DNA of 64,000 nucleotides from positions 32,001 to 96,000 of the IMG/VR virus record IMGVR_UViG_3300025288_000012, one strand, 5' to 3'. The notes below the pieces were generated by a model, which searched no databases, had not been told where the DNA came from, and saw only the letters and a program-made list of their open reading frames with translations. Positions 7,901 through 20,540 of this stretch are shown piece by piece. This DNA comes from a virus. How positions within the stretch are numbered: position 1 is the first letter of the stretch; each line of letters begins with the position of its first letter. A program made the position numbers and the translations under genes.

Positions 7901-10137
7901 TCCTTGACCAACGCTTGAAAGTCCGGCAAGGTGAACATGTTGCTGGGGTTGATAACGAGGAACTCTTTACGAGGAACTTCCAGAATGTGTTCGCACAACT
8001 TCTGGAAGATACGACCACCCAAGTAGGAGTAGACGTTTTTGAACTCGCCTAGAGAGAAGAACTCCGGATTGAAGTAGTGTTCATTGTCCTTAACGTCACC
8101 ACCATCCTTCAAAGCTTCTCGAGCAAGATTGGTACCAGGGGCACCGGAGGAGTCACGAATAGCTGCACCCAGAAGGGTAAACAGTGCCCTTGTCTGAGCC
8201 TCGATTTGATCTGCGCTCAGTATCTGGTTAAACTCAGGCTTCACACCCAAAGTGTTATCCATTATGGCGCGGTAGATATTAACGTCATAAGGAGCAGCCT
8301 CAAGGTCAAGAGTCTTAAGATTCAAGTCCTTCGCAGCAGCAAGTACAAGGTCTTGCAAAACTGGGACTTTCTTCTCAGCCAGCAGGTAACGGTACAGCCT
8401 GTGGACACCCACAAAGATTGTAGTCTTCAACATCGCAAGCGCAGGCCCACCCTTACCGAAGCTAGCCTCAGTAATCTTACCCGATCGGTTTCCACCATCA
8501 CTAACGGCCATTGAGGTGTTGAAGAGAATAGCCATGGATTCAGCAAAAGGCTTACGCAGGTAATCTGCAATGCTGAGGTCATTGGGTACAGCGGAGCCAG
8601 CCAAGCTGTACGAAACAAGTCGTTCCGGATCAGTGGAAGCACTTGTAAGGATGACGTTGTAGTCCCAGCTGAAAGTCTGCATGGAACCAGCATAGGCGGA
8701 GATCTTTGTTTTTATATCCTTGATCTTCTCCTTGTACGCAGGAGAGCCCACGCCAAACACCTTGGCAGTTTCACCGATCTGACTGGCGTTTAAAGGTGTA
8801 CCCGCATCGTAGGACAGACGCAGGGCTTCTTCGAGAAGAGCCTCGTAGTTCTTTGCGTTGTCCAACGCCAGTTCAGTTGAAGGAGGACACCAGTTGAAGC
8901 GACCTTTGTCAGAGATAAAGATTCCATCCTCATTGTTACGACCAGGCTCAGAGAAGAATCCCAATGCCTTGCGACGTTCAATCAGCATGGACGTCTGGCT
9001 TGCACTGAGAACGTAACGAGGTGCATTGTAGGCATTTACCCTATCGCCGCCCTTTGTTTTCTGGCGCGGAACCTTCATCAAGGCGCTAGTCCAGATGCTG
9101 ACCCAGGTGTTTAGTGGCACCAGAGGAATTTCTGCTGAGGGAGGAGTCTGCGTTATGAACGAGGCGAAGACTTTCGGTATCGAGAGGTAGAAACTGAATC
9201 CAAGATTTGAGTTGAATGCCAAGCCGTACTTCGAGAGCGTGGAGGTTTGCTCCGTCAGTTCGGGAGGCGTGGGCGACTTGCCCATGTAGTCAACAGAGCT
9301 CTTTTCAGCTTCTTGGACGACTAAGAGGTTCAGGTACTTTTGTAAGCCTTGCACCATAACCGGATCGGGCTTGGGCGGGTGAACATCACCGAACAGGTCA
9401 ATATTCGGGATGAAGGTACTTGCAAGCTCATTGAGACGCGTAAGGAACGCGCTCATGTCGTAGGACAAAGGCAGCTTGTTCAGCTTACGCTTGTGCGAAG
9501 ATCCATATGCCGCTGGTTCACCCGCGAATTCTTTGTTAATGGCTTGCGCGAGTGCATGGGCCATCTTGAATTCTTGTTTCTCGAACGTGCTGAACGTGCC
9601 TGGACGAGACATTTCCTCATGCTGGTAGCTTGTAGTGTAAGTGGGGAATTCATCAACTTTCAGAGCTGCCTTCATGCAAGTACCTGGAAGTCCACTGAAC
9701 AGTATGTCAAAGCCGACCTTTGAAGGAACGATTACATGCTTGCCCCTTATGCCTTCAAGGTAGTTCTTCACCATAAGAGTTTGAGCACCTTGGTCATTTG
9801 CCGCAACCACTAGACGAGCAAATTTCGCGGCTGCAGTACGCACTAATGTGGCCTCGTCGTAAAAAGTGGCTTCAAGGGCTATGGTGGTTATGTGGGCACG
9901 AACAGCTGCAAAAAAGGAAGTGAGCTTCGCCATGTAGACGGCAAGCTCATAGTAGTGTTTGTAGCTAGTGACGAAGCCTTTAGGTTGACGACGTTTGGGG
10001 AAAAATGTGTTTACATACTCGTCAAAGTCTTCATCCTTCATCTGAACTGGGAGTAACGCCTCCGCAGATGAGGCTGCGGCAGCAACGAATATGGATTCGT
10101 CCCTTCCTACAGGATTCAAGTTCAAGGTCAGCAGCAT
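1912..10137 (-). CDS. Giant SNF2-family helicase precursor with two inteins and a ~820-aa unknown N-terminal region
   Basis: Spliced motifs APGGGK|T (I), LDESH (II), LATGT (III), VIVFCRY (IV), SISEGHNLQ|CAS (V), QSSSRIFR (VI). Track start is 10173; the ATG at 10137 overlaps the upstream TAA (TAATG) with GGAG upstream and is the more likely start. Confidence 0.9.
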   Translation of the reverse strand: MLLTLNLNPVGRDESIFVAAAASSAEALLPVQMKDEDFDEYVNTFFPKRRQPKGFVTSYKHYYELAVYMAKLTSFFAAVRAHITTIALEATFYDEATLVRTAAAKFARLVVAANDQGAQTLMVKNYLEGIRGKHVIVPSKVGFDILFSGLPGTCMKAALKVDEFPTYTTSYQHEEMSRPGTFSTFEKQEFKMAHALAQAINKEFAGEPAAYGSSHKRKLNKLPLSYDMSAFLTRLNELASTFIPNIDLFGDVHPPKPDPVMVQGLQKYLNLLVVQEAEKSSVDYMGKSPTPPELTEQTSTLSKYGLAFNSNLGFSFYLSIPKVFASFITQTPPSAEIPLVPLNTWVSIWTSALMKVPRQKTKGGDRVNAYNAPRYVLSASQTSMLIERRKALGFFSEPGRNNEDGIFISDKGRFNWCPPSTELALDNAKNYEALLEEALRLSYDAGTPLNASQIGETAKVFGVGSPAYKEKIKDIKTKISAYAGSMQTFSWDYNVILTSASTDPERLVSYSLAGSAVPNDLSIADYLRKPFAESMAILFNTSMAVSDGGNRSGKITEASFGKGGPALAMLKTTIFVGVHRLYRYLLAEKKVPVLQDLVLAAAKDLNLKTLDLEAAPYDVNIYRAIMDNTLGVKPEFNQILSADQIEAQTRALFTLLGAAIRDSSGAPGTNLAREALKDGGDVKDNEHYFNPEFFSLGEFKNVYSYLGGRIFQKLCEHILEVPRKEFLVINPSNMFTLPDFQALVKEVMPAIVILGKYTVNSSTIIEKANELEESNQRNQSITASDIVMPGSKSGFQVFPHQLKVHQYLQNHPRYAVLDVAPGGGKCLTGDHLVPTTSGLLKLSELWDQSDPNSLRNGFQSLDQVEVVSHERTVVQATKAFKSAGRTRKVVLSDGSSIQGLPEHKLWALESGSLDEEFIQLNDLRKGMWISKAIGDEVYATRTPTLALGNRSIKLSEDMAEVFGWLVAEGYTPADAETISFEQHHTANRERYIAKFESVFGPGSYHQIDSRRTSVGVARSFTDVIEFLRRELVLGTSSFKEVPRCIRAAPKRYQIAFLRSLWEGDGSIWHGSTGANQRRIWRIQYSTISAALATQVKLMMENMGIPVTMGIGDKYYSNNHDHPKRVHTLGVDWKDIPKFAECIGFLSEEKHSKLQSAAAKTNWSSYEAKQTTNMEVGGKWNKLPAHALTCELVGHLEDTLAQFEYDVPTNTRGSGGRTETWSVQKLLRDSGMGRNLAPAKYPHGATNRYSVIRLVRAIEALEPMIRSQLLKSPRVKCILETLNTLLSKYWVFVKSSKEDSPEDVYDLSVPGPHSYSVGGVYGHNTILLLADAAGIVGKGLIKGPPCIFAPNGLVRNWVEDLHKVTEGKWNVIPITTAVYRTWGDERLTKLIKEAPRNTIIVMSTSVLKLDKYPIVIGNHVESVSAVLEFARKFGFEYIALDESHRGKNVNSGVHKALRQVMVASTVKYVRLATGTLIKDRLTDVVGQAALFNAQIFRTAEEYEAENSEQLGTFQVMTWKPNTPELARAQLSKHAAVITAKRKEWAFMLPRPIETFIPVRMEKSDAEGGLVHQMMYDAILKETLEEIKQDKDVMALLQGHSEDDDDEDDDGAPQVLPTDNDLDDATLADLESKLEPYLARLEQLLTDPVGDPFGEVYFGGMAKDNFVSNKVQKCIERIRRNFDKYPWVKGKKYKLKDLADSNGERYVLMGVPGKVLTLDDYELEYESHIDPAKDPRWKPEPQGKVIVFCRYTRTVNAVYKALPPDLKKIAIKFHGEVKNKMEGFDRFKTSPFSLTKDPQILIANEQSISEGHNLQCFPAQTQVMIDYRKSMSIGEIYANPEITHVLSYNLETRKIEKRKIYGKLRHKVKPKDVYLNVRVEDNRTGEASPLLLTEEHPVFLKDGSEIEARDLKVGDQLITYGGKFSPFNSCPETLSKSLKKFYSSPEGRSSIEEKLTRYYEDLDAQEQMSATRTEVNARPEVKRKISKSLRKHWAKPGMRDLHSARLQAALSTPEARQRKSAATAWCHANIPGYTEAGVGAMLLAQGTLLNIPESNVIDLGIKGLAYTGDGDYWVTLTMGGRTVNKNPDFVSLNHLNSKGRTYKVVEVIGARAYRDKKYDRELIKAYAKVGIECLIVDADSCYHEATLADTRARLESFINNHYLTVTSITFGKSKKLIGDYKYDLNVKGNHNFFACAGSNDRHNTLIPVLVHNCASRIIRMESPWSPGELDQSSSRIFRPDPSKKFSRENVYLDWIICNGSLEVAKMGRLISKMLIKTQFDEAGNPLYAAIAEQQLPLIRMNLDTIASVPVISDIQEYIEAYANLVHIQAAEFEDMRQSGPSTMLDVPPTPMFKEARILEQVPYVPNLEVPDRHDFGLLRLNEYLQDTEDPAVQAILKDRKNLIGSYVHTEFGNGVISRVGLSRPPKVEGISDNELEAARRITRVDVQLANGDTYSGAATMIFLATNVTKDNVKDFGPTTKLATKRDKALAERARKALERQEAREAKKAAAAAAKTILGLGKKKRAPKPEPEEDEEEQNLNIELFPVVYNGFLALEGSPEDPEFDIKSYGFKQFGDYAYTIVKDQKSFEALLDYLDAKFSISTPIFRRLESLQDSFQSGKGRKFAVELAPVAEFKNFYLLRHKLSGKDAKGRPELKIYPVILNGSLMLTVDIATNPSIKRHLNKVIPGTRSLKFAEASGLNIKFFNARSELVSFVRSMRAEGVVVTNFAELKQELADLKTTQRI
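3508..4698 (-). mobile_element. Intein 2 of SNF2 (397 aa) with NUMOD3-like repeats and a Vsr/PD-(D/E)xK-like nuclease
   Basis: GHNLQ|CFPAQTQV ... LLLTEEHPV ... YDLNVKGNHNFF ... VLVHN|CAS; internal NPDF..VVEVIG..AYAKVGIECLIV. Confidence 0.9.
6169..7662 (-). mobile_element. Intein 1 of SNF2 (498 aa) with LAGLIDADG homing endonuclease, in Walker A
   Basis: GGGK|CLTGDHLV ... FGWLVAEG, FLRSLWEGDG ... YDLSVPGPHSYSVGGVYGHN|TILL. Confidence 0.92.
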
Positions 10138-10562
10138 TATAGTGCTCCGTTGGTTGCGATAATTTTTAGCCACACGTCGTTAGGTTCGAGGTTCCGTCGA
10201 GCACAATCATTTACCAAGCTAGTCGCTATAACTAGCCTTACATTTTTCGGCTTGTCCAGGAAATACTCCGAGGAGTAGAACTTGTTTATGAACGGTACAG
10301 TTAGCTGGGACAACGAATACTCAAAAGAAGACCTGAACATAGACAGTTCCTCTTCAGTATACACCGCGTCTTCCTTTGACTCCGGGGACTGAAGTATTAA
10401 GATCTGTTGGTTAAGTCGAAGTATCTCTTGTCTCAAGCTCTCTACCAAGTTAGAGTCAACGTTGCCTTCCGACAACGATACCAGCAGACGAGTTGAAATA
10501 ACGTTTGCAGCAGCAGAAGTTTGAGCTAGTTCATGGATAATGTGGCGGAGTCTAGAGGGCAT
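10137..10562 (-). CDS. Hypothetical protein (internal LLVSLSE motif)
   Basis: 141-aa ORF in a tightly packed minus-strand run. Confidence 0.6.
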   Translation of the reverse strand: MPSRLRHIIHELAQTSAAANVISTRLLVSLSEGNVDSNLVESLRQEILRLNQQILILQSPESKEDAVYTEEELSMFRSSFEYSLSQLTVPFINKFYSSEYFLDKPKNVRLVIATSLVNDCARRNLEPNDVWLKIIATNGAL

Positions 10563-10583: not shown

Positions 10584-11384
10584 TTACAGTTTGTCAGAAG
10601 TTTTTAAGGCTTTCCAGGTCTTGGCGAGATAGGTTTTCGCTTCGTCAGGCTTACCCAGTGCGATAAACTTGCCTAGATACACTACTACCTTAAGGACAAC
10701 AGCATCACGGGAACGTCGGACTGACACTACGTATGACTTTGTCTTAGTCAGAACTAGCCATCCCCAGTCTTGAGGTTCTTTCTGCTCCAGACTACTTGAG
10801 GTAGGCAACACCGATTTACCCTTTACCGTCTTGTCCTGCAACTGCACAGGTAGCTTTCCAGAAAATCCAGTAAGCCTAGACAGAGCCTGTTCTAGCTGAA
10901 CTTTTACTTTAGGCTGGAGAGTTGAGTAGCTCGTTACCTGGTATAGCTTGCCGGTGTCAGCCACACTGACTACGATGCGTTTACGCGTAAAGACAGATTG
11001 GAAGTTGTACCTTCTCACTACCTTATCGGATTCGAGTACCAACTGGGATAGTTGCTCAGTAACAAGCCGCTTGTAGACTTTATCGGGATTGAGTGCGGTC
11101 TTCGTTACTGGGTCAGCTACTTTACGCGCAAAAGGGTTAACCCTATTGTAGCGCATGTACCTGATAAACTCCAGTATAGTGTAGAGTAGCCTTGAGTCTG
11201 CATCAGGAGCAGCGAAGTCGGATTCTTCGATAAAGGTCCTCCACTCGGCCTCGTACTTCGGATTGAAGACTATAGGAAGTGTAACCTTGCTGGTATTAGT
11301 AACACCGAATGTCTGCAGCAACTTTTTTACTGAGTCTGCAGAGCTTCTAGAAATCAAACGGTGAGTTACACTTAACGCGTCCAT
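10584..11384 (-). CDS. Hypothetical protein
   Basis: 266-aa ORF abutting neighbours. Confidence 0.65.
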   Translation of the reverse strand: MDALSVTHRLISRSSADSVKKLLQTFGVTNTSKVTLPIVFNPKYEAEWRTFIEESDFAAPDADSRLLYTILEFIRYMRYNRVNPFARKVADPVTKTALNPDKVYKRLVTEQLSQLVLESDKVVRRYNFQSVFTRKRIVVSVADTGKLYQVTSYSTLQPKVKVQLEQALSRLTGFSGKLPVQLQDKTVKGKSVLPTSSSLEQKEPQDWGWLVLTKTKSYVVSVRRSRDAVVLKVVVYLGKFIALGKPDEAKTYLAKTWKALKTSDKL

Positions 11385-11385
11385 G

Positions 11386-11895
11386 TCAATCCTTCAGGTC
11401 AGAAACAGTCTCTTGGTGAAACTGGCAGGACGCCGGCTTAGCTGCAAGTCTCCTGTTAATTGAACTTATGCGGTTCGTAAGCTGTGGAGTCTCGTCAATG
11501 TCTGTCCACAAGGTTACATGCAGCATCAGATCATCGTAGGAATGCTTGGCACCACGACCAATCCACACCTTATGACGTTTCTGTAGTGCGTCCGATTGTA
11601 GCTTCGCGGTCAGGTACTTCTTGTCGTCAGAGCCCCTGAAGATTTCAACTTCATTCAGCTGGGCGTCGTACTTCTTGGCAGGGTCGGTCTCAACAGAATT
11701 CGGAGTAGCGTCCTTGCTGTACAAGACCGTTATGTGGAACTTTGAAGGGTCGGGCTTTACACCCAAGGCTTCAGCCAGTGAGGACAATAGGGCGGCCGTA
11801 GCCTTCGTGGGAATAACCGACACATACGCACCATTGCCGCCTGTGAAAGGCAGCATCTCAAGTGTCGGAGAACTTAGAGAGACCATGACTTTCAT
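11386..11895 (-). CDS. 2H phosphodiesterase, Acb1 (T4 57B)-like anti-CBASS nuclease candidate
   Basis: Two HxT motifs (FHITVLYS, LHVTLW); GAYVSV, LQSDALQKRH..GAKHSYDD and the C-terminal ETVSDLK parallel T4 Acb1 as I recall it. Confidence 0.75.
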   Translation of the reverse strand: MKVMVSLSSPTLEMLPFTGGNGAYVSVIPTKATAALLSSLAEALGVKPDPSKFHITVLYSKDATPNSVETDPAKKYDAQLNEVEIFRGSDDKKYLTAKLQSDALQKRHKVWIGRGAKHSYDDLMLHVTLWTDIDETPQLTNRISSINRRLAAKPASCQFHQETVSDLKD

Positions 11896-12317
11896 TTTAG
11901 TGCCTCGGACGAGAAGCGGAGCAGCTCAAGGTTTGTGTTCAAGGTAAACGTCTTGAAAGGTATCGCAATCATGCGGGCGAAATGTTCCGGGTCAGCCTTT
12001 GACCACTCGTGGTACTTGTCACCACGTTTTTCCATTTCGCGGAACAACACCTTCGCAGTACCAAGCACACCCTCAAACTTGGCCATGTTACGCGTACCAC
12101 GCAGCGTAACGATAGTGTTCTTAGACTTGGCCTCAAGCCTAGGAGTAGCGATACGGATCAAGAAATCCGTCATACCAGGACGAATACGGGCTAGTTCAAT
12201 GCGAAGATAGGACAGCAACGGGCTGCCACTTTCACTTAGAAAGGAGTCGGTAGATTCGCTGTACTGGAGATACGGGCAAGGCTCGTGGTTGGGTTCGTTG
12301 TGAATGCGCGGTTCCAT
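11892..12317 (-). CDS. Hypothetical protein
   Basis: 141-aa ORF, 4-nt overlap with the next gene. Confidence 0.6.
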   Translation of the reverse strand: MEPRIHNEPNHEPCPYLQYSESTDSFLSESGSPLLSYLRIELARIRPGMTDFLIRIATPRLEAKSKNTIVTLRGTRNMAKFEGVLGTAKVLFREMEKRGDKYHEWSKADPEHFARMIAIPFKTFTLNTNLELLRFSSEALK

Positions 12318-12327
12318 ATCAACTCCA

Positions 12328-12837
12328 TTAGGTGAAAAGTGGTTTGAACTTATGAGTGTCTATGTCAACACTGCGTGACGGTGCGAACTCACCGTAAAGT
12401 CTCTTAGGCATATCTGAAGCGCCAAGGTAACGTACCTTGAAACTAGGTGTGTACTTCTCACCTTCTTCAAACTTGTATCTCGAGTATCCACCGAAGGCTG
12501 CCTGAACAGCAACTATCATACTGGTGCCACCTTCGGTCAGTAAAGCTTGGGCCCGGTGTCGACCTTCGTGTTCTTGGATCTGTCCTATTTTTACAGGACT
12601 ACCGAACCTAACGGTGTCGAAGCTGACCTTAATGGTTGGGATCTGAGAACTTCCAGACGTAGCCCATTTATTGTATTCATCAAGTGTCTTTGCACTGTTC
12701 TGTATTTCGTCCAGGGCTGCGGAACTATTCGTAGTAAGGTAAAGGAAGTCTTTCGGGTGGATGAAAATTAGTCCGCAGCACTTGTTACCTCGCGCGAGTT
12801 CTAACATCTTCCGAGTTATGACTAGGAACTTTTTCAC
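12328..12837 (-). CDS. ParB/Srx-like N-terminal domain protein (tentative)
   Basis: IQEHEGRHRAQAL resembles the ParB (D/E)GHxR box. Confidence 0.4.
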   Translation of the reverse strand: MKKFLVITRKMLELARGNKCCGLIFIHPKDFLYLTTNSSAALDEIQNSAKTLDEYNKWATSGSSQIPTIKVSFDTVRFGSPVKIGQIQEHEGRHRAQALLTEGGTSMIVAVQAAFGGYSRYKFEEGEKYTPSFKVRYLGASDMPKRLYGEFAPSRSVDIDTHKFKPLFT

Positions 12838-13184
12838 GACAGACTCTTCAGCACATCAAGATGCTTCTTCAGCATGGCAGGTAGTTGGTTGACAAACAGA
12901 GCTTCATCCGTGAAGGATACTCCGTCTGACAGATACACCTTGGACTCAGTCTCAAAGAAAAAGACCCTTAAAGGAATAGTTTCAGCCTTCGTGCTTATAG
13001 GCAGACTGAAGCGAGTAGCAAAAAAGTTCTTCCCAGTCTTGTAGTCCTTGTAATTCACATAAGCTACCTGAATTCTACTTCTTGGTATGCCTAGTAAGCC
13101 AGCAAGCAGAGCCAGCAAGACTGTTGAGTGAGCTGAAGATTTCGTCATCTTAGGTGCGAATGAAGGGGTTGCTTGCTGTGACAA
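12834..13184 (-). CDS. Hypothetical protein
   Basis: 116-aa ORF in the operon-like run. Confidence 0.5.
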   Translation of the reverse strand: MSQQATPSFAPKMTKSSAHSTVLLALLAGLLGIPRSRIQVAYVNYKDYKTGKNFFATRFSLPISTKAETIPLRVFFFETESKVYLSDGVSFTDEALFVNQLPAMLKKHLDVLKSLS

Positions 13185-13414
13185 TTAACGCAGAGTGTTT
13201 TTAGATTGTACGACACTGTGCGACCTCCTCTGCTTACTGGTACTATGTGATGCACCTCAAGCCTAACCAAACGTCTAGGGGTTCCACACTTCGTGCATCG
13301 GTACCCGTCTCGCTTCATCACTGCCTCGCTTATTGCAGGCCAGTTGGTCGTGTAAGCAGTTGTGCGAGTCCTACGGATTTTCGATACGAGTTTAGGCTTG
13401 GTGTAGAGTCTCAT
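13145..13414 (-). CDS. Small HNH endonuclease
   Basis: RDGYRCTKC..LEVHHIVPVSRGG..NLKTLCVNCH. Confidence 0.85.
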   Translation of the reverse strand: MRLYTKPKLVSKIRRTRTTAYTTNWPAISEAVMKRDGYRCTKCGTPRRLVRLEVHHIVPVSRGGRTVSYNLKTLCVNCHSKQPLHSHLR

Positions 13415-13707
13415 AGCTTGAAGGTTATGTCACTCAATCCGGTTATGTCTATCAATCCTTTTGCGAAGGCATCTCGAAGTTCAAGAATCTCCTTCTCGGT
13501 AAGTTTACGATAGAAGGTCCACTTGTCTCTAGTGTAGCGTACGGCACCTTGGAGCTTGTTGGTCCTAGAGTCGTAAACGTAAGCCTGATTGTGTCGTGGA
13601 ATATCGACCCTACGACCACGGCTTACTAAGTACACACCATGATCTTCTACCCACTTGCGGAGGGGTTTCGTTATTTCATCTATGTCGTTAGGGATCATAA
13701 TAATCAA
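13411..13707 (-). CDS. Hypothetical protein
   Basis: 98-aa ORF with coupled start/stop. Confidence 0.55.
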   Translation of the reverse strand: MIIMIPNDIDEITKPLRKWVEDHGVYLVSRGRRVDIPRHNQAYVYDSRTNKLQGAVRYTRDKWTFYRKLTEKEILELRDAFAKGLIDITGLSDITFKL

Positions 13708-13977
13708 TTACGGCTTCAGCGTTAGTACGAAGGGCTCGGACTTGCCCGCAAAACGACTTGCAACCATCTTGGTGGAAGCAGGAAGAACACGCATCAGTTT
13801 CTTCATTATAGCCAGGAGCATGGTCATGGCGAAGCCAGCCTCAACCTTGAAGGTAAGTTTCAGATTGTCGCCCTCGGCCTCTACTTCCAGGAGAGTGATG
13901 CCAGGCAGAAAGACACCCTTCATTTCTTCAAAGAGCTTGAGGTAGTCTTCACCAGATATTGAGATATTGAGTTTCAT
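13708..13977 (-). CDS. Hypothetical protein with MKLNISIS leader
   Basis: 89-aa ORF with coupled start/stop. Confidence 0.55.
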   Translation of the reverse strand: MKLNISISGEDYLKLFEEMKGVFLPGITLLEVEAEGDNLKLTFKVEAGFAMTMLLAIMKKLMRVLPASTKMVASRFAGKSEPFVLTLKP

Positions 13978-15875
13978 TTGGTTTTCCTTTCAACTTTTTT
14001 GGTCACACCCCATCCAGCCTTAAGGGCGTTTTTGAATCGTGCGGGGCCACGAATGAACAAGAGAGTGTCTAGTTCAGTCTTGGTTAGAGGTAGCAGTGAA
14101 GGCAGAGACTCACTAATAAATTTCCACGCTGTCTTTACCTTCGCTTGGTCACTGCTAAGCCGATACCAAGAGCCTACCTGTATGCCGTTAAATTCAGAAA
14201 CAAACGCTTGTAACTGTCGGATCATTCCTGTGTGGTTAATCAAGAACGAAGCAGCCTTTGTTTTGTTCTTCATGAGGCAAAGAGCAAAGAAGGTATCGAA
14301 ATAATCGTACAGGTAACCAGAAGTTGATAGCTTTGCAGCACGTGCACCTGACTTAAGGTCAGCAGCAGCATCAAGTGCAGCAGATTTCGCAGCCAGATCT
14401 GCTACTGTACTAGCTGCGTACATCTTTATGGCACTAGCAAGCTTGGGTGGTAAATTGGTATAGTTCACACCACTCTTGCGCGATTCTTTAACATCAGACA
14501 CAGGTCTAGACACAGCGAAGATACGGCTCTGCAGGGATTTGGGTAGTCTTCCCATATCGTATCCTTCGAGGACAAGTAGGAGTGACTTTAAGGCATCGTC
14601 CTCTATGGAGGTGACGTTGCCCATCGTCCGCACTATTACTTTACCCAGCAAGGACACGAAAGGCTTTCCAGTTGAGTTGCGGATAAGGAAGCTGTCAGCA
14701 TCATCACCCAATATATTCCTCAAAGCAAGGGGCGATAGGTCGGGAGTTACTAACGTAAAGTCGCCCTCGGTTTTAACCTTGTACTTAGTAGCCAGATACT
14801 TAAGGACGTCTGAATCTAGGCCACGGAAGAAGATACCAAGGTCATTCAAAGGCTTGCTGGAGTACAGCTTTATTTTGTCCCCGCCCGACAGCTTAGGTAT
14901 TTCGCTGGGTAAGAGATCCAAGTTTAGATTGAACCCCAAGTCGTAAGGCTCGCCCTTGTAGGTAACTATTCTGTTACTATGATAACTTTCGCCTTTTGCC
15001 ACCACGTAAGGCAAAGGACCCACCTCATCTTTTCTTAAGGCCTTTCTGAACGTCAACTCTCCAATTGACAGGCGTAGCTTGACGCCTTGTTTAGTAGCCT
15101 TTGAGGGTAGGAAGCGTAGTAGGTTGTTGTCCTCAAGGTACTTCATGGTCAAAGACTTAGAAATTCCTGACTGGTCAAGTCGTATAGTCTCCCACGGCTG
15201 GAAGCCGAAGAATGGGTAGACAAACGGTCTGTACTTAGGTATTACCTCGTCGTTTGTCTTACCTTTTATCTGCATAATGTCCTTACCTTCAACCTCAACC
15301 GTTACATGAGGTTGATTTTTCGAGTCGCGAAGGGAATAAATTTGTTTGTGGCCTTCAGAGACTTCGTTGCAGTAGCTGCCTACGCAATGACCCATTATCT
15401 TGCCTTCGCGGTCAAGCGACTGCATGCCTGTGACCTCTACCCAGTAGTAGCCCTGAGCTAGCTCCAGCACTACTTTCGTACCATCCTCGACGTCACTGAC
15501 GGTCTTGGCTGTCTTTAGACTCTCGTGCCACTTCTCTGACTTTGTTATGGCATAAGGCACGGACATGCGTTCAAAAGGTTCACTGGCAGCTTTCAAGTGA
15601 CGTAGGTAGTCGATAAGACGTGCAGAAATTTCCTCAACTTCACCCCATTTTACTTGCTGGAGGTCTTTCTTGGCGAAGGCAGTTTTTGCCCACTCTGGAG
15701 CACTGGCGTCTAGCTTCTCTACGTCTTGTGCGGGAGCATAATTCTGAACCCAGTTCTTGAAGGTAGACTTTATCCACTTAGCTATGGCAGGGTCGTTCTG
15801 GCCTGCAGCTATCTCAGCACAGTGCGACTTAACATCGTCAAGGAGATTGCGGGATAAGGAGACAAATAGTTTCAT
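13974..15875 (-). CDS. PcfJ-like domain protein with MKLFVSLS leader
   Basis: EGKIMGHCVGSY..IYSLRD..PHVTVEV..IMQIKGKTN is the PcfJ-like pattern. Confidence 0.65.
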   Translation of the reverse strand: MKLFVSLSRNLLDDVKSHCAEIAAGQNDPAIAKWIKSTFKNWVQNYAPAQDVEKLDASAPEWAKTAFAKKDLQQVKWGEVEEISARLIDYLRHLKAASEPFERMSVPYAITKSEKWHESLKTAKTVSDVEDGTKVVLELAQGYYWVEVTGMQSLDREGKIMGHCVGSYCNEVSEGHKQIYSLRDSKNQPHVTVEVEGKDIMQIKGKTNDEVIPKYRPFVYPFFGFQPWETIRLDQSGISKSLTMKYLEDNNLLRFLPSKATKQGVKLRLSIGELTFRKALRKDEVGPLPYVVAKGESYHSNRIVTYKGEPYDLGFNLNLDLLPSEIPKLSGGDKIKLYSSKPLNDLGIFFRGLDSDVLKYLATKYKVKTEGDFTLVTPDLSPLALRNILGDDADSFLIRNSTGKPFVSLLGKVIVRTMGNVTSIEDDALKSLLLVLEGYDMGRLPKSLQSRIFAVSRPVSDVKESRKSGVNYTNLPPKLASAIKMYAASTVADLAAKSAALDAAADLKSGARAAKLSTSGYLYDYFDTFFALCLMKNKTKAASFLINHTGMIRQLQAFVSEFNGIQVGSWYRLSSDQAKVKTAWKFISESLPSLLPLTKTELDTLLFIRGPARFKNALKAGWGVTKKVERKTK

Positions 15876-16429
15876 GACTTGGGCCCTAATAGAATGTTCT
15901 GAGTGTTTGATGCTGCAACATCGTAAGAGTGCTGCAACGCTTTAGTAATTTCTTTGACTATTGTTTCTATGGTGTCCATTGCAAACTTAGTTTCTTTTGG
16001 TGTAGTTGTTTCTTTAGCCAAGGTACGCAACTGGTAGAACGAATTGACGATGACCTGTCCCATTGCCTGAGAGAATGGTTGAAGCACATCCTTAACAAGC
16101 ATGTCAACCTGACCAGTCATGTCAGTCATGGTGCGAATGTCAGCAATAACCTCACGCTGCTGACTAAGTAACGTACAAAGGGCGTAGTAATTACGCCCGG
16201 AAGGGTTTGACACAGCATCACGTTTAGCTTGCCTTACCAATGTACGGAGAGATTTGTACATGTAAAGGTACTCTTGCAAGTACTCTTTATCACCCATTAC
16301 TGCTTCAGCCTTTTCTATTATCTGCTGGTCTTTTTCAACTGACCTCGCTAGACGTGCAGCTTTCTCCTTAGCCCTAGCAGGAGAACGGGGTTTTCTTTTC
16401 TTGCGGGTGATCTCTATTTCATCAGTCAT
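15872..16429 (-). CDS. Hypothetical helical protein with basic N-terminus
   Basis: 185-aa ORF; no recognisable motif. Confidence 0.6.
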   Translation of the reverse strand: MTDEIEITRKKRKPRSPARAKEKAARLARSVEKDQQIIEKAEAVMGDKEYLQEYLYMYKSLRTLVRQAKRDAVSNPSGRNYYALCTLLSQQREVIADIRTMTDMTGQVDMLVKDVLQPFSQAMGQVIVNSFYQLRTLAKETTTPKETKFAMDTIETIVKEITKALQHSYDVAASNTQNILLGPKS

Positions 16430-16707
16430 GAGTTGTACAGTGTACAGTAGGAGCGCAGTCGATTGTTGAAGTCAGTGCACCCCTTAGACAACCTGATTAG
16501 GTCGTGCAATTCATCAAGTTGCTCTTTCATTTCCTTGAGTATGAGGGACTCTGCACTACGCGAGTCGTCATGAAAGCTCAAGTTGTCAACGTAGGACCGT
16601 TGGTTCACAAAGTCTCTGGAAAGGCATTCGGCATGAGCAGTTAAGACACTTGTGGTATCTTCTCCAGGTAACAAGTCAGTGGGTAACTGAAGTTTAACAC
16701 TGCTCAT
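16426..16707 (-). CDS. Hypothetical protein
   Basis: 93-aa ORF with coupled overlap. Confidence 0.5.
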   Translation of the reverse strand: MSSVKLQLPTDLLPGEDTTSVLTAHAECLSRDFVNQRSYVDNLSFHDDSRSAESLILKEMKEQLDELHDLIRLSKGCTDFNNRLRSYCTLYNS

Positions 16708-16717
16708 GCTGAGTCCT

Positions 16718-17365
16718 TTACGCTGCTTCCGTCAAAGCTTTCTTTGCTGCACGGAATTTGGCCATGTCGGATTTGCTGATACTGACAACGTTGTCCGCGC
16801 CCAGTTTCACCAATACGACTTTGCCGAACATCGACTGCGACTCGACTACGTTTGCCTCATTCAGACCAGCCTTACCCAGCAGATCCTTCAGCATACCGAG
16901 GGACGAGTCGAACACTTTCAAATCGGCTTCACGAACGGCGCCACGAATCTTCGTCGCCTTTGTTTTTACAGAGTCAGATTTGGTTACATGGCGCTTGATG
17001 GCAGCATGGGCAAGTTTGATCTGTGCAGCCAGTGCAGCTGTAACACCAGGCAACTTCGGAGCAAGGATGGGCAACAGGAGCTTGACGTTGGGATTGGTCG
17101 TAATACGCTTGCGGAAAGTCAGCTTGACAGCACGTTGGGACATGTACTTAACGTCAAGCTTCTTCTCTTTGGCCGCACTGTAACCGATCGGTTTGGCCTT
17201 GCGAGGGTAGTAGTACGCACCCAGAACCTGGGCGTTACCCCCTTCGGGAGTTATGTACTTCGCAGCACGTTCACCCAAGGTGATGATCTTGGGCAAGTTC
17301 ACCATACCGTCGGCCAAGAGGTATGGATTGGGTGCTGCCGACAACGAGATGATTTCTTTAGACAT
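16718..17365 (-). CDS. Basic Ala/Lys-rich hypothetical protein, possibly virion
   Basis: 215 aa, strongly biased codons (AAG, GCC), AGGA upstream, IISLSA near the N-terminus. Confidence 0.7.
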   Translation of the reverse strand: MSKEIISLSAAPNPYLLADGMVNLPKIITLGERAAKYITPEGGNAQVLGAYYYPRKAKPIGYSAAKEKKLDVKYMSQRAVKLTFRKRITTNPNVKLLLPILAPKLPGVTAALAAQIKLAHAAIKRHVTKSDSVKTKATKIRGAVREADLKVFDSSLGMLKDLLGKAGLNEANVVESQSMFGKVVLVKLGADNVVSISKSDMAKFRAAKKALTEAA

Positions 17366-17430
17366 GATGATTCCTAGACGTAGTGGTTAACGATAAAAAT
17401 TACTGGTGTGACCTGTTCGCGTGCCCTCAT

Positions 17431-17649
17431 TTACCTTAGGTTTAGACGAAGTGAGTGCCTGCAGTCGTCTGGCAATAACAAGTGAGTTGGAACTAGGAAT
17501 TTTACCTTTATATTTCTCCTTGAATACCGCGAATTTAGCCCTGACTGCAGCGCTTTGCTACTGCGATTACGCTGGACGTTGCTGTGTACCTTCTCAAGCA
17601 AGGAGAGAAGCAAAGATGAGCCAGCGGAAAGTGACACCAGTAGTTTCAT
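17431..17649 (-). CDS. Small protein with MKLLVSLSA leader; possibly frameshifted
   Basis: Start overlaps the upstream stop; an alternative frame after about 17560 reads as more protein-like. Confidence 0.4.
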   Translation of the reverse strand: MKLLVSLSAGSSLLLSLLEKVHSNVQRNRSSKALQSGLNSRYSRRNIKVKFLVPTHLLLPDDCRHSLRLNLR

Positions 17650-18464
17650 AGCGTACTCCCACGGGCGTTAGACTGAATCCAGTTCCAAGCTATAGTACTA
17701 AGCTCTTCACGGCTAGCCGTGGCAAGACGTGTCAACTTCTCAATTTTCCGAGCAGAGGCAGTTGAACCATCGTGGGCATAGATAACACAAGCAGCTTCCA
17801 GGTGGTCCATAGCATCTGCTAGCTGCAACGACACCATATCAAGGTCAGCTTCCCTTGTGTCGGCGTCACGTATCGCAAACTTGTACAGTCGAGGTACGCT
17901 GCTCGTAAGGATGTCCTGAGCCACAGCAACTGCAGCCTTGTCACGCCCAGACTTTACAAGTTCCCTTGCAGGAGCTGCACTAAACAAAGGCAAAACCTTA
18001 AGTATCGCTGCACCCCAATCACCATCCTTTTTAGAGATAGCATCGAGCTTCTTTGCGATAGCACGGAACTTCTTGACAAGCCCGAGATTGAAAGTCCATG
18101 CGGTAGGCTGAGCAGACTTCAAGGCAGCGTTAAGAGCCTTGCTGACCTCAGCAAAGTTCGATGCCTCACCTGCTTTCTTACCTGCCTCTTTAGCCCGCTT
18201 GAGAACGTAGGCTATATCAATGTCGTCCAAGGTGTAGAGGAGTGTCGGACCACCAGTCTTAGTGATAAGACGTGAGTCTTTACCATTGGACGACTTACGG
18301 ATACCGAACAAGTCACCTTTCCTCAAGGTGTCACTTTTACCACGCCTTTCCAGTCCAAAAGGAACACCCGCAGTGTACTCATACCAGGTGTAAGTTCCGG
18401 TGTCCTTAACTGCAGACACCGAAAGCTGAGCAACAGCCGTTGCTAAAGAGACAGTAAGTTTCAT
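17646..18464 (-). CDS. Hypothetical protein with MKLTVSLA leader
   Basis: 272-aa ORF with GGAG RBS. Confidence 0.65.
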   Translation of the reverse strand: MKLTVSLATAVAQLSVSAVKDTGTYTWYEYTAGVPFGLERRGKSDTLRKGDLFGIRKSSNGKDSRLITKTGGPTLLYTLDDIDIAYVLKRAKEAGKKAGEASNFAEVSKALNAALKSAQPTAWTFNLGLVKKFRAIAKKLDAISKKDGDWGAAILKVLPLFSAAPARELVKSGRDKAAVAVAQDILTSSVPRLYKFAIRDADTREADLDMVSLQLADAMDHLEAACVIYAHDGSTASARKIEKLTRLATASREELSTIAWNWIQSNARGSTL

Positions 18465-18478
18465 TGCAGCCCTCCAGA

Positions 18479-19348
18479 TCAGCAGAACGAATGTTGCTTG
18501 ATGCGCTTGGCGAATTCAAGGAAGAACTTCGGGTCGCTGTTGTAGATGCGCTTATAGTAGTCGATCATGTAGTTGATGTCTACACGGCCAGAGCTTAATG
18601 CTACTTCCTGGTCAACAACTTCTTCGGTGTTCAGAGCGGGCTCGGGGAAGCCTTCCTGATTGTGAACGTCCACAACCGCATCGGTTTTGATGACTTCCGC
18701 TTCTTTGGCACCTTGTTGTAGAACCAGAGCTTCGTCTTCGTCAGTAGTTGCAACCACGAAACCCATGACAACCTGATTATTCAGATCAACGTAGGAAACG
18801 TAGGAACCACCTTGCACTTGAGAGGCAATGGCGCTGCACATAGCTTGCAGTTGACCATACTCATGAGAGCTGCGGTGTCCAGCAGAAGCGGTTGCTTCCA
18901 GCAAGTTCAGCAGGCTGAGGTCATCCTCGGAGCTGGTCTTGATAAGGATATCGCCGGCCACAGTACGCTTCAGTGCCCACATGTCCTTTTCGTCATCCAT
19001 GAACATGTTGGAGGATATGGCGCGGAAACCTTTCAGTGCATTTTCGTCAACGGCCACTATCTCGCGAACCTTGCCCACGACACCGGTGATACGGTCGGTG
19101 AAAGCGCCACTCGACACGGTAACGAAGGACTCACGAACTGCCTCGAAACGACCTTGCAGTTTGCGACCAATCGAGGCCAGGATAAGGGCGGCGTTACCGC
19201 GACTCTTGGAAGAATGGGTAACGTCGATTACTACACGGGCCATATCCTTGCCCGCAGATGAGTAGCTCTTCAGCTCAATGGTCGGTTCATCGGACTTGAC
19301 CTGACCGATGGCGGCGTGGATGGAATGATCGTGTCTAGCGTTTTTCAT
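18479..19348 (-). CDS. Putative virion structural protein
   Basis: 289 aa, highly biased codon usage, strong AAGGAG RBS; function inferred from context only. Confidence 0.55.
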   Translation of the reverse strand: MKNARHDHSIHAAIGQVKSDEPTIELKSYSSAGKDMARVVIDVTHSSKSRGNAALILASIGRKLQGRFEAVRESFVTVSSGAFTDRITGVVGKVREIVAVDENALKGFRAISSNMFMDDEKDMWALKRTVAGDILIKTSSEDDLSLLNLLEATASAGHRSSHEYGQLQAMCSAIASQVQGGSYVSYVDLNNQVVMGFVVATTDEDEALVLQQGAKEAEVIKTDAVVDVHNQEGFPEPALNTEEVVDQEVALSSGRVDINYMIDYYKRIYNSDPKFFLEFAKRIKQHSFC

Positions 19349-19412: not shown

Positions 19413-20540
19413 CTACCTATGACCAATAAAGACTGGGATACCAAAAGGTAGACGGGTTGTTGGTGCATTTATCAAACCTAAGGTTCCCTTAGACGAGGCA
19501 ACATTAAGATTCTTGCTTCCAATTGATCCATCACCTGACCTAAGACCTTGAACTGCAAGTTTGGCCTTCATAGGAACTACCTTGTCACTTATTGCCGACT
19601 CTATACGACCTAGTGCTGCATCCAACTGTGGAGTCCTATCCACATTAAGAGAGATACCTTGACCAGAAAAATCAAAGGACAAACTTCCTTCTGCTAGAAG
19701 CTGAGCACTCAAGGCGTAGTAACATGAACAAGTAAGCCACCCATCCAGAAGTACACCCTGCATATTCATGCCATTCCATGAACTAGGCTGCCCTACTCCA
19801 TTGAACAAATACAGACCACGCTCAAGGTACGACACTAAATCACCTGAAGTGTATTGCAGCTCAGGTATGGTATTTTCAATTCTAGACTTGTTAAGGAAGT
19901 CCTCTAGGAAGTTCATCGCTAGAAGAATCTGAGGCGTTATGGTCCACATCTTGTACACGAAGGACCTGCTGGTGCCGCCCTGGGGTGTAACGTCTACCTT
20001 CAGTAGAGCTGCTTGCAGTGAAGGCTCAGGGAACACCAGAGGCAGCAAGATGCTGGTCTTATCAACGGTACGAGTTATAGCGTTGGACGAATTTATATCA
20101 CCAGGTGTAGAAAGAATGGGCTCATTGTTGAAGTATATTTGGTACGTACCCGTATCGGCTGCTGCAAAGTGTGTAGGCAAGACTAAGGTGAACGTTGCGT
20201 CACCCCACAAGGCTATTACGTCAGACTCCCGGTACTCTGTCTTCGGTTCAACAATGACTGCAGAGGTTTCTCGGAACTTGTCACCTTGAGGCGTGTGGAA
20301 TACCCACACCAAACGTAGTTCCTGCTTAGTGGACACACCCATCGTAGGAATACTTACGTTCGCAACCCACACACCAGGAGTAGCTGAAGGCGATGCGGTG
20401 CTTAGGCTTAGCACAGCCTTAGAGTCGTCGTACAGACGTACTTTAGGGTATCCGGCTGCTGCAATTAGTGGTACATCAGCATCGTCTAAGAACTCTTGAG
20501 AGGCGGAAAGAACTGTTCCGTCTACGGCATTATAGATCAT
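19413..20540 (-). CDS. Putative virion neck/head-completion-like protein
   Basis: 375 aa with a beta-rich N-half; C-half (LSFDFSGQGISLNVDRT) is reminiscent of jumbo-phage neck proteins; unverified. Confidence 0.4.
   Translation of the reverse strand: MIYNAVDGTVLSASQEFLDDADVPLIAAAGYPKVRLYDDSKAVLSLSTASPSATPGVWVANVSIPTMGVSTKQELRLVWVFHTPQGDKFRETSAVIVEPKTEYRESDVIALWGDATFTLVLPTHFAAADTGTYQIYFNNEPILSTPGDINSSNAITRTVDKTSILLPLVFPEPSLQAALLKVDVTPQGGTSRSFVYKMWTITPQILLAMNFLEDFLNKSRIENTIPELQYTSGDLVSYLERGLYLFNGVGQPSSWNGMNMQGVLLDGWLTCSCYYALSAQLLAEGSLSFDFSGQGISLNVDRTPQLDAALGRIESAISDKVVPMKAKLAVQGLRSGDGSIGSKNLNVASSKGTLGLINAPTTRLPFGIPVFIGHR

What the first reader, a model, noticed from the sequence alone, without database searches (positions are those of the whole stretch)
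11386..18464. Shared N-terminal leader MK[LV]x[VI]S[LI][SA] on unrelated proteins: candidate capsid-targeting or maturation signal
Seen: MKVMVSLSS (11895), MKLNISISG (13977), MKLFVSLSR (15875), MKLLVSLSA (17649), MKLTVSLAT (18464), plus MSKEIISLSA (17365) and internal RLLVSLSE (ORF 10137-10562). The rest of each protein is unrelated, and Ser/Leu codons vary (TCC/TCA/TCT/AGT), pointing to protein-level constraint. Established: T4 internal proteins use a short N-terminal capsid-targeting sequence removed by the prohead protease. Inference: this is an analogous sorting tag marking proteins for packaging and injection.
Basis: partly seen in the sequence, partly recalled or inferred. Interest (0 to 1): 0.8.

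Follow-up and report, generated by a model that had tools for sequence, protein, structure and literature searches.

The report
Shared cargo tag on jumbo-phage proteins
A large uncultured phage and its relatives start about sixteen otherwise unrelated proteins, including an anti-CBASS nuclease, with the same nine-residue peptide; the genes sit among head and neck genes, so the peptide most likely loads them into the capsid for delivery with the DNA, but packaging has not been measured.

Summary
All seven N-termini are at the stated coordinates. Genome-wide (190.9 kb contig) there are 8 strict and about 16 loose copies of M-K-[LIV]-x-[IV]-[SA]-L-[SA], against 0.01-0.03 expected. All lie in two islands:
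- the window island, between the head-tail connector gene and a giant DarB-like helicase;
- a portal-protease-capsid island outside the window.

Codons vary synonymously, and the proteins share nothing else. In an AlphaFold model of the Acb1 protein, only residues 1-9 are disordered. A solved Acb1 structure lacks the extension.

The same tag recurs in four related genomes on different cargo sets, one of them a complete 281 kb genome with 16 tagged ORFs in the same two islands. It also heads 28 of 150 distant Acb1 homologues.

The best reading is a capsid-targeting tag that works like the T4 CTS (confidence 0.55). Packaging and cleavage are not shown. Evidence for a cleavage site is weak, and the protease family is unresolved.

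Another agent of this scan already reported the tag from the protease locus of this same genome (e1-5804982). I found no description in the papers searched. It is a new variant of a known kind.

The parts
11386..11895 (-). Tagged cargo gene: Acb1-like 2H phosphodiesterase (anti-CBASS), 169 aa. The tag is residues 1-9 (bases 11869-11895), the linker is residues 10-21, and the fold starts near residue 22.
   Evidence: Pfam PF23474 E=8.9e-18, matched from residue 21. AF2 mean pLDDT 91.5, with only residues 1-9 below 50. PDB 7T26 Acb1 starts at profile position 21.
13708..13977 (-). Tagged cargo gene, 89 aa, no known family. Its start overlaps the stop of the upstream gene (ATGA).
   Evidence: Strict tag. 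No Pfam or PHROG hit.
13974..15875 (-). Tagged cargo gene: PcfJ-like protein, 633 aa.
   Evidence: PF14284 E=1.1e-13 at residues 121-212. The 35%-identical homologue P0157 keeps the V-S-L-S-R-N-L-L-D stretch, while distant PcfJ homologues have no tag.
16718..17365 (-). Tagged cargo gene, 215 aa. The tag is offset by one residue (M-S-K-E-I-I-S-L-S-A).
   Evidence: Its G001 orthologue (31% identity over 214 aa) has a clean tag with a two-residue offset.
17431..17649 (-). 72-aa ORF with the best-scoring tag. Its body is low-complexity, so it may be a small cargo gene or the remnant of one.
   Evidence: PSSM score 21.5. No family hit. Reality not established.
17646..18464 (-). Tagged cargo gene, 272 aa, with a KMPT-N-like domain starting at residue 25.
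   Evidence: PF20294 E=6.5e-5, below the curated cut-off. Homologues P0003 (85% identity) and P0004 (61% identity) keep tag variants.
10137..10562 (-). 141-aa ORF with an internal tag-like stretch (R-L-L-V-S-L-S-E at residues 25-32). Weak candidate member.
   Evidence: No start codon lies next to the motif and no homologue was found.
10584..11384 (-). 266-aa ORF with a degenerate tag-like stretch at residues 9-16. Conserved neighbour of the giant helicase.
   Evidence: The G001 orthologue (29% identity) has R-M-L-T-S-L-S-A at the same place.
1912..10137 (-). Giant SNF2-type helicase with two inteins, homologue of PaBG gp202. Its likely true start is the ATG at 10137, with GGAG 8 nt upstream, which gives a degenerate tag (M-L-L-T-L-N-L-N).
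   Evidence: Pfam SNF2, Intein_splicing and LAGLIDADG. Sequence context. PaBG gp202 is virion band 1 (PMC7412058).
19413..20540 (-). Head-tail connector gene that bounds the island. Context, not tagged.
   Evidence: phrog_17327 E=9e-101. 43% identical to PaBG gp195.
18479..19348 (-). Conserved untagged backbone gene (PaBG gp197 homologue). The tagged genes are inserted downstream of it.
   Evidence: phrog_17573 E=2.5e-39. blastp against gp197 E=3e-34.
15872..16429 (-). Conserved untagged backbone gene (PaBG gp198 homologue) between tagged genes.
   Evidence: phrog_23026. blastp against gp198 E=3e-20.
13145..13414 (-). HNH endonuclease (PaBG gp199 homologue) inside the island.
   Evidence: PF01844 E=8.9e-13. 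49% identical to gp199.

Best explanation
M-K-[LIV]-x-[IV]-[SA]-L-[SA] is a short, unstructured N-terminal sorting tag. A clade of PaBG-related jumbo phages places it on a variable set of about 16 otherwise unrelated proteins per genome.

The most likely mechanism runs as follows:
1. During head assembly, the tag binds a conserved component of the prohead interior (core, scaffold, capsid-protein delta region or protease).
2. Tagged proteins are therefore enclosed in the capsid.
3. The prohead protease may then trim the tag at a nearby small-x-Glu site.
4. The cargo leaves with the DNA at the next infection.

The cargo includes Acb1, a PcfJ-like protein and a KMPT-N protein in the window, plus NAD ligase and topoisomerase IB elsewhere in the genome.

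Shown here: the tag, its protein-level conservation, its disorder, its position outside the catalytic fold, its gene neighbourhood and its recurrence in relatives. Inferred: binding partner, packaging, cleavage and injection.
For: 1. Enrichment. 8 strict and about 16 loose copies against 0.01-0.03 expected.

2. Location. All plausible loose hits fall in two islands. One runs from the connector to the giant helicase (window). The other runs portal-protease-capsid protein.

3. Protein-level constraint. Ser is encoded by AGT and by TCN, and Leu by CTN and TTR. Offset variants keep the peptide but shift its distance from the start codon.

4. The tag lies outside the folded domain.
- Pfam or PHROG matches start at residue 21 (Acb1), 25 (KMPT-N) and 38 (ligase).
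- The AF2 Acb1 model has pLDDT 91.5, and only residues 1-9 fall below 50.
- Solved Acb1 7T26 begins at profile position 21.

5. Replication with cargo turnover.
- Metagenome contig L040 (portal 54% identical) has 8 or more tagged ORFs beside its portal, some without a homologue here.
- IMG/VR relatives L042 and L043 (capsid protein 94% and 88% identical) carry different tagged sets.
- The complete 281,566-bp genome G001 has 16 tagged ORFs in the same two syntenic islands.

6. Spread in one family. 28 of the 150 best Acb1 homologues from 1.8 billion representatives begin with the tag, at 30-40% body identity.

7. Virion link.
- The window island is syntenic with PaBG gp193-gp202, and the tagged genes are extra relative to PaBG.
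- PaBG gp202 (giant helicase) and gp83 are abundant virion proteins (PMC7412058).
- Both have tag-like N-termini.

8. Precedent. The 10-residue T4 CTS targets IPs and foreign proteins to the prohead core and is removed by gp21 (PMC9026906). SPN3US head proteins have 20- and 24-residue N-terminal propeptides cut after A-x-E (PMC10052503).

9. Possible cleavage site. [STAG]-x-E ends at positions 9-16 in 7 of 16 tagged against 16 of 204 other proteins (P=3e-4, post hoc).
Against: - No proteomic, N-terminal or imaging data exist for this phage.
- The PaBG proteome lists only 14 Coomassie-visible bands. It does not include the PaBG ligase, topoisomerase or Acb1 homologues.
- PaBG tags are divergent, so the PaBG link is by resemblance only.
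- The [STAG]-x-E signal was defined after looking and replicates only marginally in G001: 5 of 16 against 45 of 347, P=0.054.
- The KMPT-N protein and its homologues have no conserved Glu between the tag and the domain.
- The protease has no Pfam or PDB sequence match, and its AF2 model is unusable at pLDDT 43.8. Glu specificity is therefore assumed.
- Ligase and topoisomerase are expected to act in replication in the cytoplasm, so packaging is not their obvious role.
- No receptor for the tag was identified.
Confidence: 0.55

Rival explanations
1. The tag is a sorting or recognition peptide for a destination other than the capsid. It could be a handle for an AAA+ unfoldase or protease that times degradation, an inhibitory pro-peptide that keeps the enzymes inactive in the producing cell, or a signal for a site in the infected cell.
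For: - The tag is a disordered linear motif on unrelated folds, which any partner-binding role would explain.
- Met-basic-hydrophobic N-termini resemble one class of ClpX recognition signals (my own recollection, not tested).
- Iyer et al. note ClpA, ClpX and BCS1-like ATPases in subgroup 2.2 jumbo phages and suggest roles in moving proteins into heads (PMC7824862).
- Replication enzymes such as ligase and topoisomerase carry the tag.
Against: - All tagged genes sit inside head and neck modules in three genomes, which a general degron or localisation signal does not predict.
- The tag-like PaBG proteins gp83 and gp202 are in virions.
- I did not look for a tag-linked AAA+ gene. The conserved 705-aa 'ATPase' (PHROG label) between protease and capsid gene has no Pfam ATPase domain.
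Confidence: 0.17
2. The shared N-terminus marks structural members of the prohead core itself, an inner-body or scaffold-like assembly. The strand is a co-assembly element rather than a targeting signal for enzymes, and most tagged proteins stay in or are degraded within the head rather than being injected.
For: - One tagged family is conserved next to the protease from this phage to Erwinia phage Yoloswag: genome 134720-135157 here, and orthologues in L040, G001 and Yoloswag.
- Yoloswag has almost no other tags. This suggests the motif began on a core head protein.
- phiKZ inner-body proteins are likewise clustered and processed (PMC13282480).
Against: Many tagged proteins are recognisable enzymes with intact domains: Acb1, NAD ligase, topoisomerase IB and PcfJ-like. 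These would be pointless as inert core material. This reading overlaps the best explanation on packaging and differs only on what happens to the proteins afterwards.
Confidence: 0.15
3. The conserved feature is an mRNA or DNA element at the gene start, such as a translation enhancer or coupling signal for late genes. The peptide would be a by-product.
For: - Lys2 is AAA in 8 of 8 strict copies.
- Four of the five window copies start in an ATGA overlap with the upstream stop codon and have no clear Shine-Dalgarno sequence.
- A loose DNA consensus ATGAAACT-4-GTCTC exists.
Against: - Ser6 switches between AGT and TCN, Leu7 between CTN, TTR and ATA, and position 8 between AGT, TCN and GCA.
- The exact DNA pattern matches only 2 copies, and 5 with one mismatch allowed.
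- The peptide is kept in relatives and in offset variants where its distance from the start codon changes.
Confidence: 0.05
4. Chance, or the ordinary bias of bacterial N-termini towards Met-Lys followed by alternating hydrophobic residues.
For: Met-Lys-hydrophobic starts are common in general.
Against: The count exceeds expectation by more than 100-fold, none of 5000 column shuffles reached more than 1 strict copy, there are no strict copies in PaBG, and the hits cluster in two islands.
Confidence: 0.01

Closest known systems
Phage T4 capsid targeting sequence (CTS) on IPI, IPII, IPIII and Alt, removed by prohead protease gp21
   Same: - A peptide of about 10 residues at the extreme N-terminus of otherwise unrelated proteins.
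- Cargo genes turn over between relatives while the tag stays.
- The genes lie in or near head genes.
- Glu often follows within a few residues.
- The T4 tag is portable to foreign proteins (PMC9026906).
   Different: - I see no resemblance to the T4 CTS as I recall it.
- There are about 16 cargo proteins per genome instead of a handful, and they include large enzymes (ligase, topoisomerase IB, Acb1, PcfJ-like).
- The protease has no detectable gp21 (Pfam) signature.
- Packaging and cleavage are untested.
N-terminal propeptides of head and ejection proteins in phiKZ-like giant phages (phiKZ gp175, SPN3US gp245; cleavage after S/A/G-x-E or A-x-E)
   Same: - Jumbo phages that package many proteins.
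- Short 20- and 24-residue N-terminal propeptides exist in SPN3US (PMC10052503).
- Small-x-Glu motifs follow the tag in 7 of 16 proteins here.
   Different: - I saw no common consensus tag reported for those phages in PMC10052503, and most of their propeptides are 111-254 residues long.
- A different phage lineage is involved: PaBG-like subgroup 2.2, with no virion RNA polymerase context examined.
Phage P1 Dar system (DarB and others packaged into the head as anti-restriction cargo)
   Same: - A giant helicase-type anti-restriction-like protein borders the window island. Its PaBG homologue gp202 is a virion protein.
- A related Burkholderia phage annotates a DarB-like protein (bioRxiv 10.64898/2026.10.21.760668).
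- The cargo is anti-defence in flavour.
   Different: As I recall, P1 packaging depends on an ordered set of Dar proteins rather than one shared short peptide. No DarA or Hdf homologues were looked for.
Encapsulin cargo-loading (targeting) peptides binding the inside of an HK97-fold shell
   Same: A short disordered peptide with alternating hydrophobic residues, a Ser-Leu pair and a basic residue. The native M. xanthus peptide contains L-T-V-G-S-L-R-R (PMC7925596), and one window tag reads K-L-T-V-S-L-A. The shell protein here is presumably also HK97-fold; the PaBG paper modelled its homologous capsid protein on a phage capsid structure (PMC7412058), and I did not test the fold.
   Different: - Encapsulin peptides are typically C-terminal, with the basic residue after the hydrophobic part. 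Here the peptide is N-terminal, with Lys first.

Membership tests
T4-type capsid targeting sequence system | A short N-terminal peptide shared by otherwise unrelated proteins of one phage | tested here: met
   8 strict and about 16 loose copies. No similarity beyond the first 12 residues.
T4-type capsid targeting sequence system | The tag lies outside the folded domain and can be dispensed with for the fold | tested here: met
   AF2 pLDDT is below 50 only for residues 1-9 of Acb1. Solved Acb1 7T26 starts at profile position 21.
T4-type capsid targeting sequence system | The cargo set is variable between related phages while the tag is conserved | tested here: met
   L040, L042, L043 and G001 carry the tag on partly different proteins.
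T4-type capsid targeting sequence system | Tagged proteins are physically inside the capsid and are injected | not testable with these tools
   Indirect evidence only: PaBG gp83 and gp202, which have tag-like N-termini, are virion bands.
T4-type capsid targeting sequence system | The tag is removed by the prohead protease at a consensus site ending in Glu | tested here: inconclusive
   [STAG]-x-E after the tag: 7 of 16 against 16 of 204 (P=3e-4, post hoc). In G001: 5 of 16 against 45 of 347 (P=0.054). No cleavage data.
T4-type capsid targeting sequence system | The protease belongs to the T4 gp21 family | tested here: inconclusive
   phrog_18299 'head maturation protease' E=2.4e-81. No Pfam hit even at E=10. 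No PDB sequence hit. The AF2 model has pLDDT 43.8 and is unusable.
T4-type capsid targeting sequence system | Sequence similarity of the tag to the T4 CTS | not tested
   T4 internal-protein genes were not fetched. From memory the two peptides share only Met-Lys.
Encapsulin cargo-loading peptide | A terminal peptide that docks in a hydrophobic pocket on the luminal face of the HK97-fold shell protein | not testable with these tools
A capsid-protein alignment (A2) and a cargo alignment (A1) were prepared.
Encapsulin cargo-loading peptide | C-terminal position with a G-S-L core followed by a basic residue | tested here: not met
   The tag is N-terminal, has no Gly, and its Lys precedes the hydrophobic part. 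Compare PMC7925596.
Sec or lipoprotein signal peptide | An uninterrupted hydrophobic core of roughly 7-15 residues after a basic N-region | tested here: not met
   The first charged residue after position 3 comes at position 14 or earlier in 13 of 16 tags. Only three (HEAT-repeat, 72-aa and 272-aa proteins) have a longer uncharged stretch.

The most novel reading that the evidence does not exclude
The tag is a phage counterpart of the encapsulin cargo-loading peptide. It would dock directly on the inner face or delta region of the HK97-fold capsid protein. A jumbo phage could then pre-load an exchangeable arsenal of about 16 enzymes, including an anti-CBASS nuclease that is already present when the DNA enters. 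Any protein could be packaged by adding nine residues.
Probability: 0.12. Interest if true: 0.85.

Novelty: new variant of a known kind. Interest (0 to 1): 0.72.

Why it matters
If the tag loads proteins into the head, three things follow.
- These phages would deliver a ready-made anti-defence and DNA-handling kit with their genome: Acb1, PcfJ-like and KMPT-N proteins, ligase, topoisomerase IB and a DarB-like helicase. Phage anti-CBASS nucleases are usually discussed as proteins made after infection (my own understanding), so this would change how their timing is viewed.
- The tag would allow the packaged proteome of uncultured jumbo phages to be read straight from sequence. About a fifth of the nearest Acb1 homologues in metagenomes carry it.
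- It would offer a nine-residue handle for packaging foreign proteins, as the T4 CTS does.

Cultured relatives give places to test it: Erwinia phage Yoloswag has one or two canonical tags, and PaBG has divergent ones.

Tried and rejected
- The look-up of encoding contigs. I could not fetch the 172, 209 and 214 kb contigs that hold P0005, P0044 and P0004.
- Complex prediction. The planned test of capsid protein (A2) against tagged Acb1 (A1) was not run.

Searches that found nothing useful:
- megablast of the island against cultured phages: no match.
- The search for related loci in IMG/VR with single proteins (PcfJ-like, helicase N-terminus, P0044): nothing.
- One collection pattern had too few fixed bases.
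- The revised pattern hit an unrelated M-K-L-K-V-S-F-S family, because YTN also encodes Phe.
- The record behind L040 is not held, so only 20.5 kb of it could be read.
- The look-alike search in earlier scan notes gave nothing.

Protease fold: the AF2 model on 4 sequences gave pLDDT 43.8, so no fold search was made. Profile against PDB and Pfam at E=10 gave nothing.

Ideas rejected:
- Chance.
- A DNA or RNA element as the primary constraint.
- Paralogy of the tagged proteins.
- Signal peptide.
- The tag as an integral first strand of the 2H fold.
- The 705-aa 'ATPase' as an obvious AAA+ loader: it has no Pfam ATPase domain.

Literature:
- Searches for a described tag in PaBG, Lu11 or phiRSL1-type phages found none.
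- The 2026 jumbo-phage review has no occurrence of 'targeting sequence'.
- The Matilda preprint reports infection proteomics, not a virion proteome.

It was redone from files.

Full report
**Setting.** The window is bases 32001-96000 of a 190,918-bp IMG/VR virus contig estimated 78% complete. Its closest cultured relative is Pseudomonas phage PaBG, with the portal 49% and the protease 51% identical. It therefore belongs to the PaBG, Lu11 and phiRSL1 type of jumbo phages, subgroup 2.2 of Iyer et al. (PMC7824862).

**Observation.**
- In the whole contig, a strict pattern finds eight ORF starts. Five are in the window and three lie near genome 130.6-136.0 kb.
- Expectation is 0.009 to 0.018, depending on the null. 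None of 5000 column shuffles gave more than one strict copy.
- A position-specific matrix separates the eight (17.7-21.5) from the next score (11.9). The next scores again lie in the second cluster.
- A looser pattern that allows up to three extra residues after Met finds 16 plausible gene starts. All lie at genome 43.4-50.5 kb (window 11.4-18.5 kb) or 123.1-136.4 kb.
- The same pattern gives no plausible gene start in PaBG and on average 0.65 hits in shuffled sequence.

**Level of constraint.** Codon use shows that the constraint is on the protein.
- Ser6 is AGT or TCN. Position 7 is CTN, TTR or ATA. Position 8 is AGT, TCN or GCA. Only Lys2 is fixed, as AAA.
- With the first 12 residues removed, no pair of tagged proteins is significantly similar (best E 0.045).

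**What the window proteins are.**
- 11386-11895 is an Acb1-type 2H phosphodiesterase (PF23474, E=8.9e-18), matched from residue 21.
- 13974-15875 has a PcfJ-like domain.
- 17646-18464 has a weak KMPT-N match starting at residue 25.
- The 89-, 215- and 72-aa ORFs match nothing.
- The 215-aa protein carries the tag with a one-residue offset, and its orthologue in a relative has a clean tag.
- The 72-aa ORF may be a remnant.
- Outside the window, the tag or a degenerate form heads an NAD-dependent ligase (family match from residue 38), a topoisomerase IB, a HEAT-repeat protein and several unknowns. These lie between the portal, the head maturation protease and the capsid gene.

**The tag is an appendage, not part of the fold.**
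- An AlphaFold2 model of the Acb1 protein, built on 26 homologues, has mean pLDDT 91.5. Its only low-confidence segment is residues 1-9, and the first strand starts at residue 23.
- A profile of the family aligns solved Acb1 7T26 from its first residue to profile position 21.
- T4-like Acb1 from an Aeromonas phage has a different N-terminus.

**Context of the window island.** The island lies in a conserved module.
- The module comprises the head-tail connector (19413-20540, PaBG gp195 homologue), gp197 and gp198 homologues, an HNH gene (gp199) and a giant SNF2 helicase with two inteins (1912-10137, PaBG gp202 homologue).
- PaBG has no genes between gp197, gp198 and gp199. The tagged genes are therefore insertions into a structural backbone.
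- PaBG gp202 is the largest band of the PaBG virion, and gp83 is another band (PMC7412058).
- Their N-termini, and the likely true start of the helicase here (ATG 10137 with GGAG upstream), look like degenerate tags.
- In PaBG the Acb1 homologue sits two genes after the protease and begins with a divergent tag followed by S-A-E.

**Replication in other genomes.**
- *Acb1 homologues.* An exhaustive HMMER search with Acb1 found 380 homologues. 28 of the best 150, only 30-40% identical in the body, begin with the same motif.
- *L040.* One homologue, P0044, led to metagenome contig L040, whose portal is 54% identical to ours. Within 20 kb beside the portal, at least eight ORFs begin with the tag. 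They include Acb1, the ligase and proteins with no homologue here.
- *Capsid-protein relatives.* The capsid protein retrieved four IMG/VR relatives. L042 and L043 (94% and 88% identical) have several tagged ORFs between protease and capsid gene, and the sets differ.
- *G001.* This relative is a complete 281,566-bp genome with the capsid protein 76% identical. It has 16 tagged ORFs in two islands. One runs from portal to protease. The other lies between the connector and the giant helicase, syntenic with the window island.
- *Consensus.* Over 30 tags from the two genomes: Lys2 30/30, [LIV]3 29/30, [IV]5 30/30, [SA]6 30/30, Leu7 28/30, [SA]8 28/30 (the set was chosen by pattern).
- *Homologues of window proteins.* Homologues of the 272-aa and PcfJ-like proteins keep the tag at 35-85% identity. 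Distant PcfJ proteins lack it.
- *More distant relatives.* G004 (capsid protein 76% identical) shows none in the 21 kb I hold. Yoloswag has only one or two. One of these heads a conserved head-module protein whose annotated start appears too short. That family is tagged in every genome examined, so the motif may have begun on a core head protein and been copied onto cargo.

**Mechanism.** The pattern matches what is established for the T4 CTS: one short disordered N-terminal peptide, many unrelated cargo proteins, turnover between relatives, and genes inside head and neck operons. In T4, ten N-terminal residues direct internal proteins and foreign fusions into the prohead core and are then cut off by gp21 (PMC9026906). 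Giant phages such as SPN3US also remove short N-terminal propeptides after A-x-E (PMC10052503).

I therefore take capsid targeting as the best explanation, at 0.55. The steps from binding to packaging, trimming and injection are inferred. Support for trimming is weak:
- [STAG]-x-E follows the tag in 7 of 16 proteins against 16 of 204 others (P=3e-4, motif chosen after looking).
- In G001 the figures are 5 of 16 against 45 of 347 (P=0.054).
- The KMPT-N family has no conserved Glu there.
- The protease is known only by its PHROG family and could not be tied to gp21.

**Rivals.**
- A different destination or partner, such as an unfoldase handle or a pro-peptide, explains the motif but not its confinement to head modules.
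- A purely structural core role overlaps the main reading but sits poorly with intact enzymes.
- An RNA-level signal is contradicted by the codon changes and by offset variants.
- Chance is excluded.

**Comparison and novelty.** Functionally this looks like a CTS system, but membership in the T4 system is not established. The tag appears dissimilar in sequence, the protease family is unresolved, and packaging is untested. The resemblance to encapsulin targeting peptides is an untested lead.

I found no description of this tag in the papers searched. Another agent of this scan reported the same tag from the protease locus of this genome (e1-5804982). My analysis confirms it independently and adds four things:
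- the second, window island and its synteny;
- replication in four other genomes;
- the spread among Acb1 homologues;
- the structural evidence that the tag is a free appendage.

Noticed in passing
window 1912-10173 (-): A giant ORF of about 2,740 aa encodes an SNF2-type helicase interrupted by two inteins. One has a LAGLIDADG domain near residues 1052-1142. The other has a splicing domain at about residues 1823-2195. Its PaBG homologue gp202 is a virion protein. The listed GTG start at 10173 overlaps the upstream gene, and the ATG at 10137 with GGAG upstream is the more likely start.
   Followed up: partly
proteins P0005-P0154; alignment A1: A large, mostly uncultured Acb1 subfamily has the consensus N-terminus M-K-x-x-I-S-L-S-x-P-E-L before the Y-T-G motif. 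Pfam PF23474 and solved Acb1 7T26 start after this extension. Some members lie on contigs of 172 and 209 kb.
   Followed up: partly
L033, L034, L036-L038 (IMG/VR contigs of 1.3-5.9 kb): An unrelated small family starts M-K-L-K-V-S-F-S-x-P-E. It was picked up because the degenerate pattern also encodes Phe. Function unknown.
   Followed up: no
genome 132573-133316 (L009:12573-13316): The head maturation protease family (phrog_18299) is shared with cluster-C mycobacteriophages such as Bxz1 and ScottMcG at about 30% identity. It contains a Cys/His-rich insert that gives weak zinc-finger hits. It has no Pfam model.
   Followed up: partly
genome 136646-138763 (L009:16646-18763): A conserved 705-aa protein lies between the protease and the capsid gene. 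PHROGs and some GenBank records label it 'ATPase', and PaBG labels it ribosomal L2-like. It has no Pfam ATPase domain, only weak zinc-ribbon-like hits, so the label looks unreliable.
   Followed up: partly
KY448244.1 (Yoloswag) 105552-106556 (-): The annotated gene YOLOSWAG_143 starts at an internal codon. The longer ORF from a GTG begins with the canonical tag and aligns with the tagged head-module family of the other genomes. The GenBank start is probably wrong.
   Followed up: partly
window 13145-13414 (-): An HNH endonuclease gene sits inside the cargo island and is conserved at the same place in PaBG (gp199) and G001.
   Followed up: no
window 23480-24112 (-): A 210-aa, very basic Ala/Pro/Arg/Lys-repeat protein starts M-A-I-R-T-R-K, much like the start of PaBG gp191, an abundant virion protein. 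It may be an internal DNA-binding protein. Homology was not tested.
   Followed up: no
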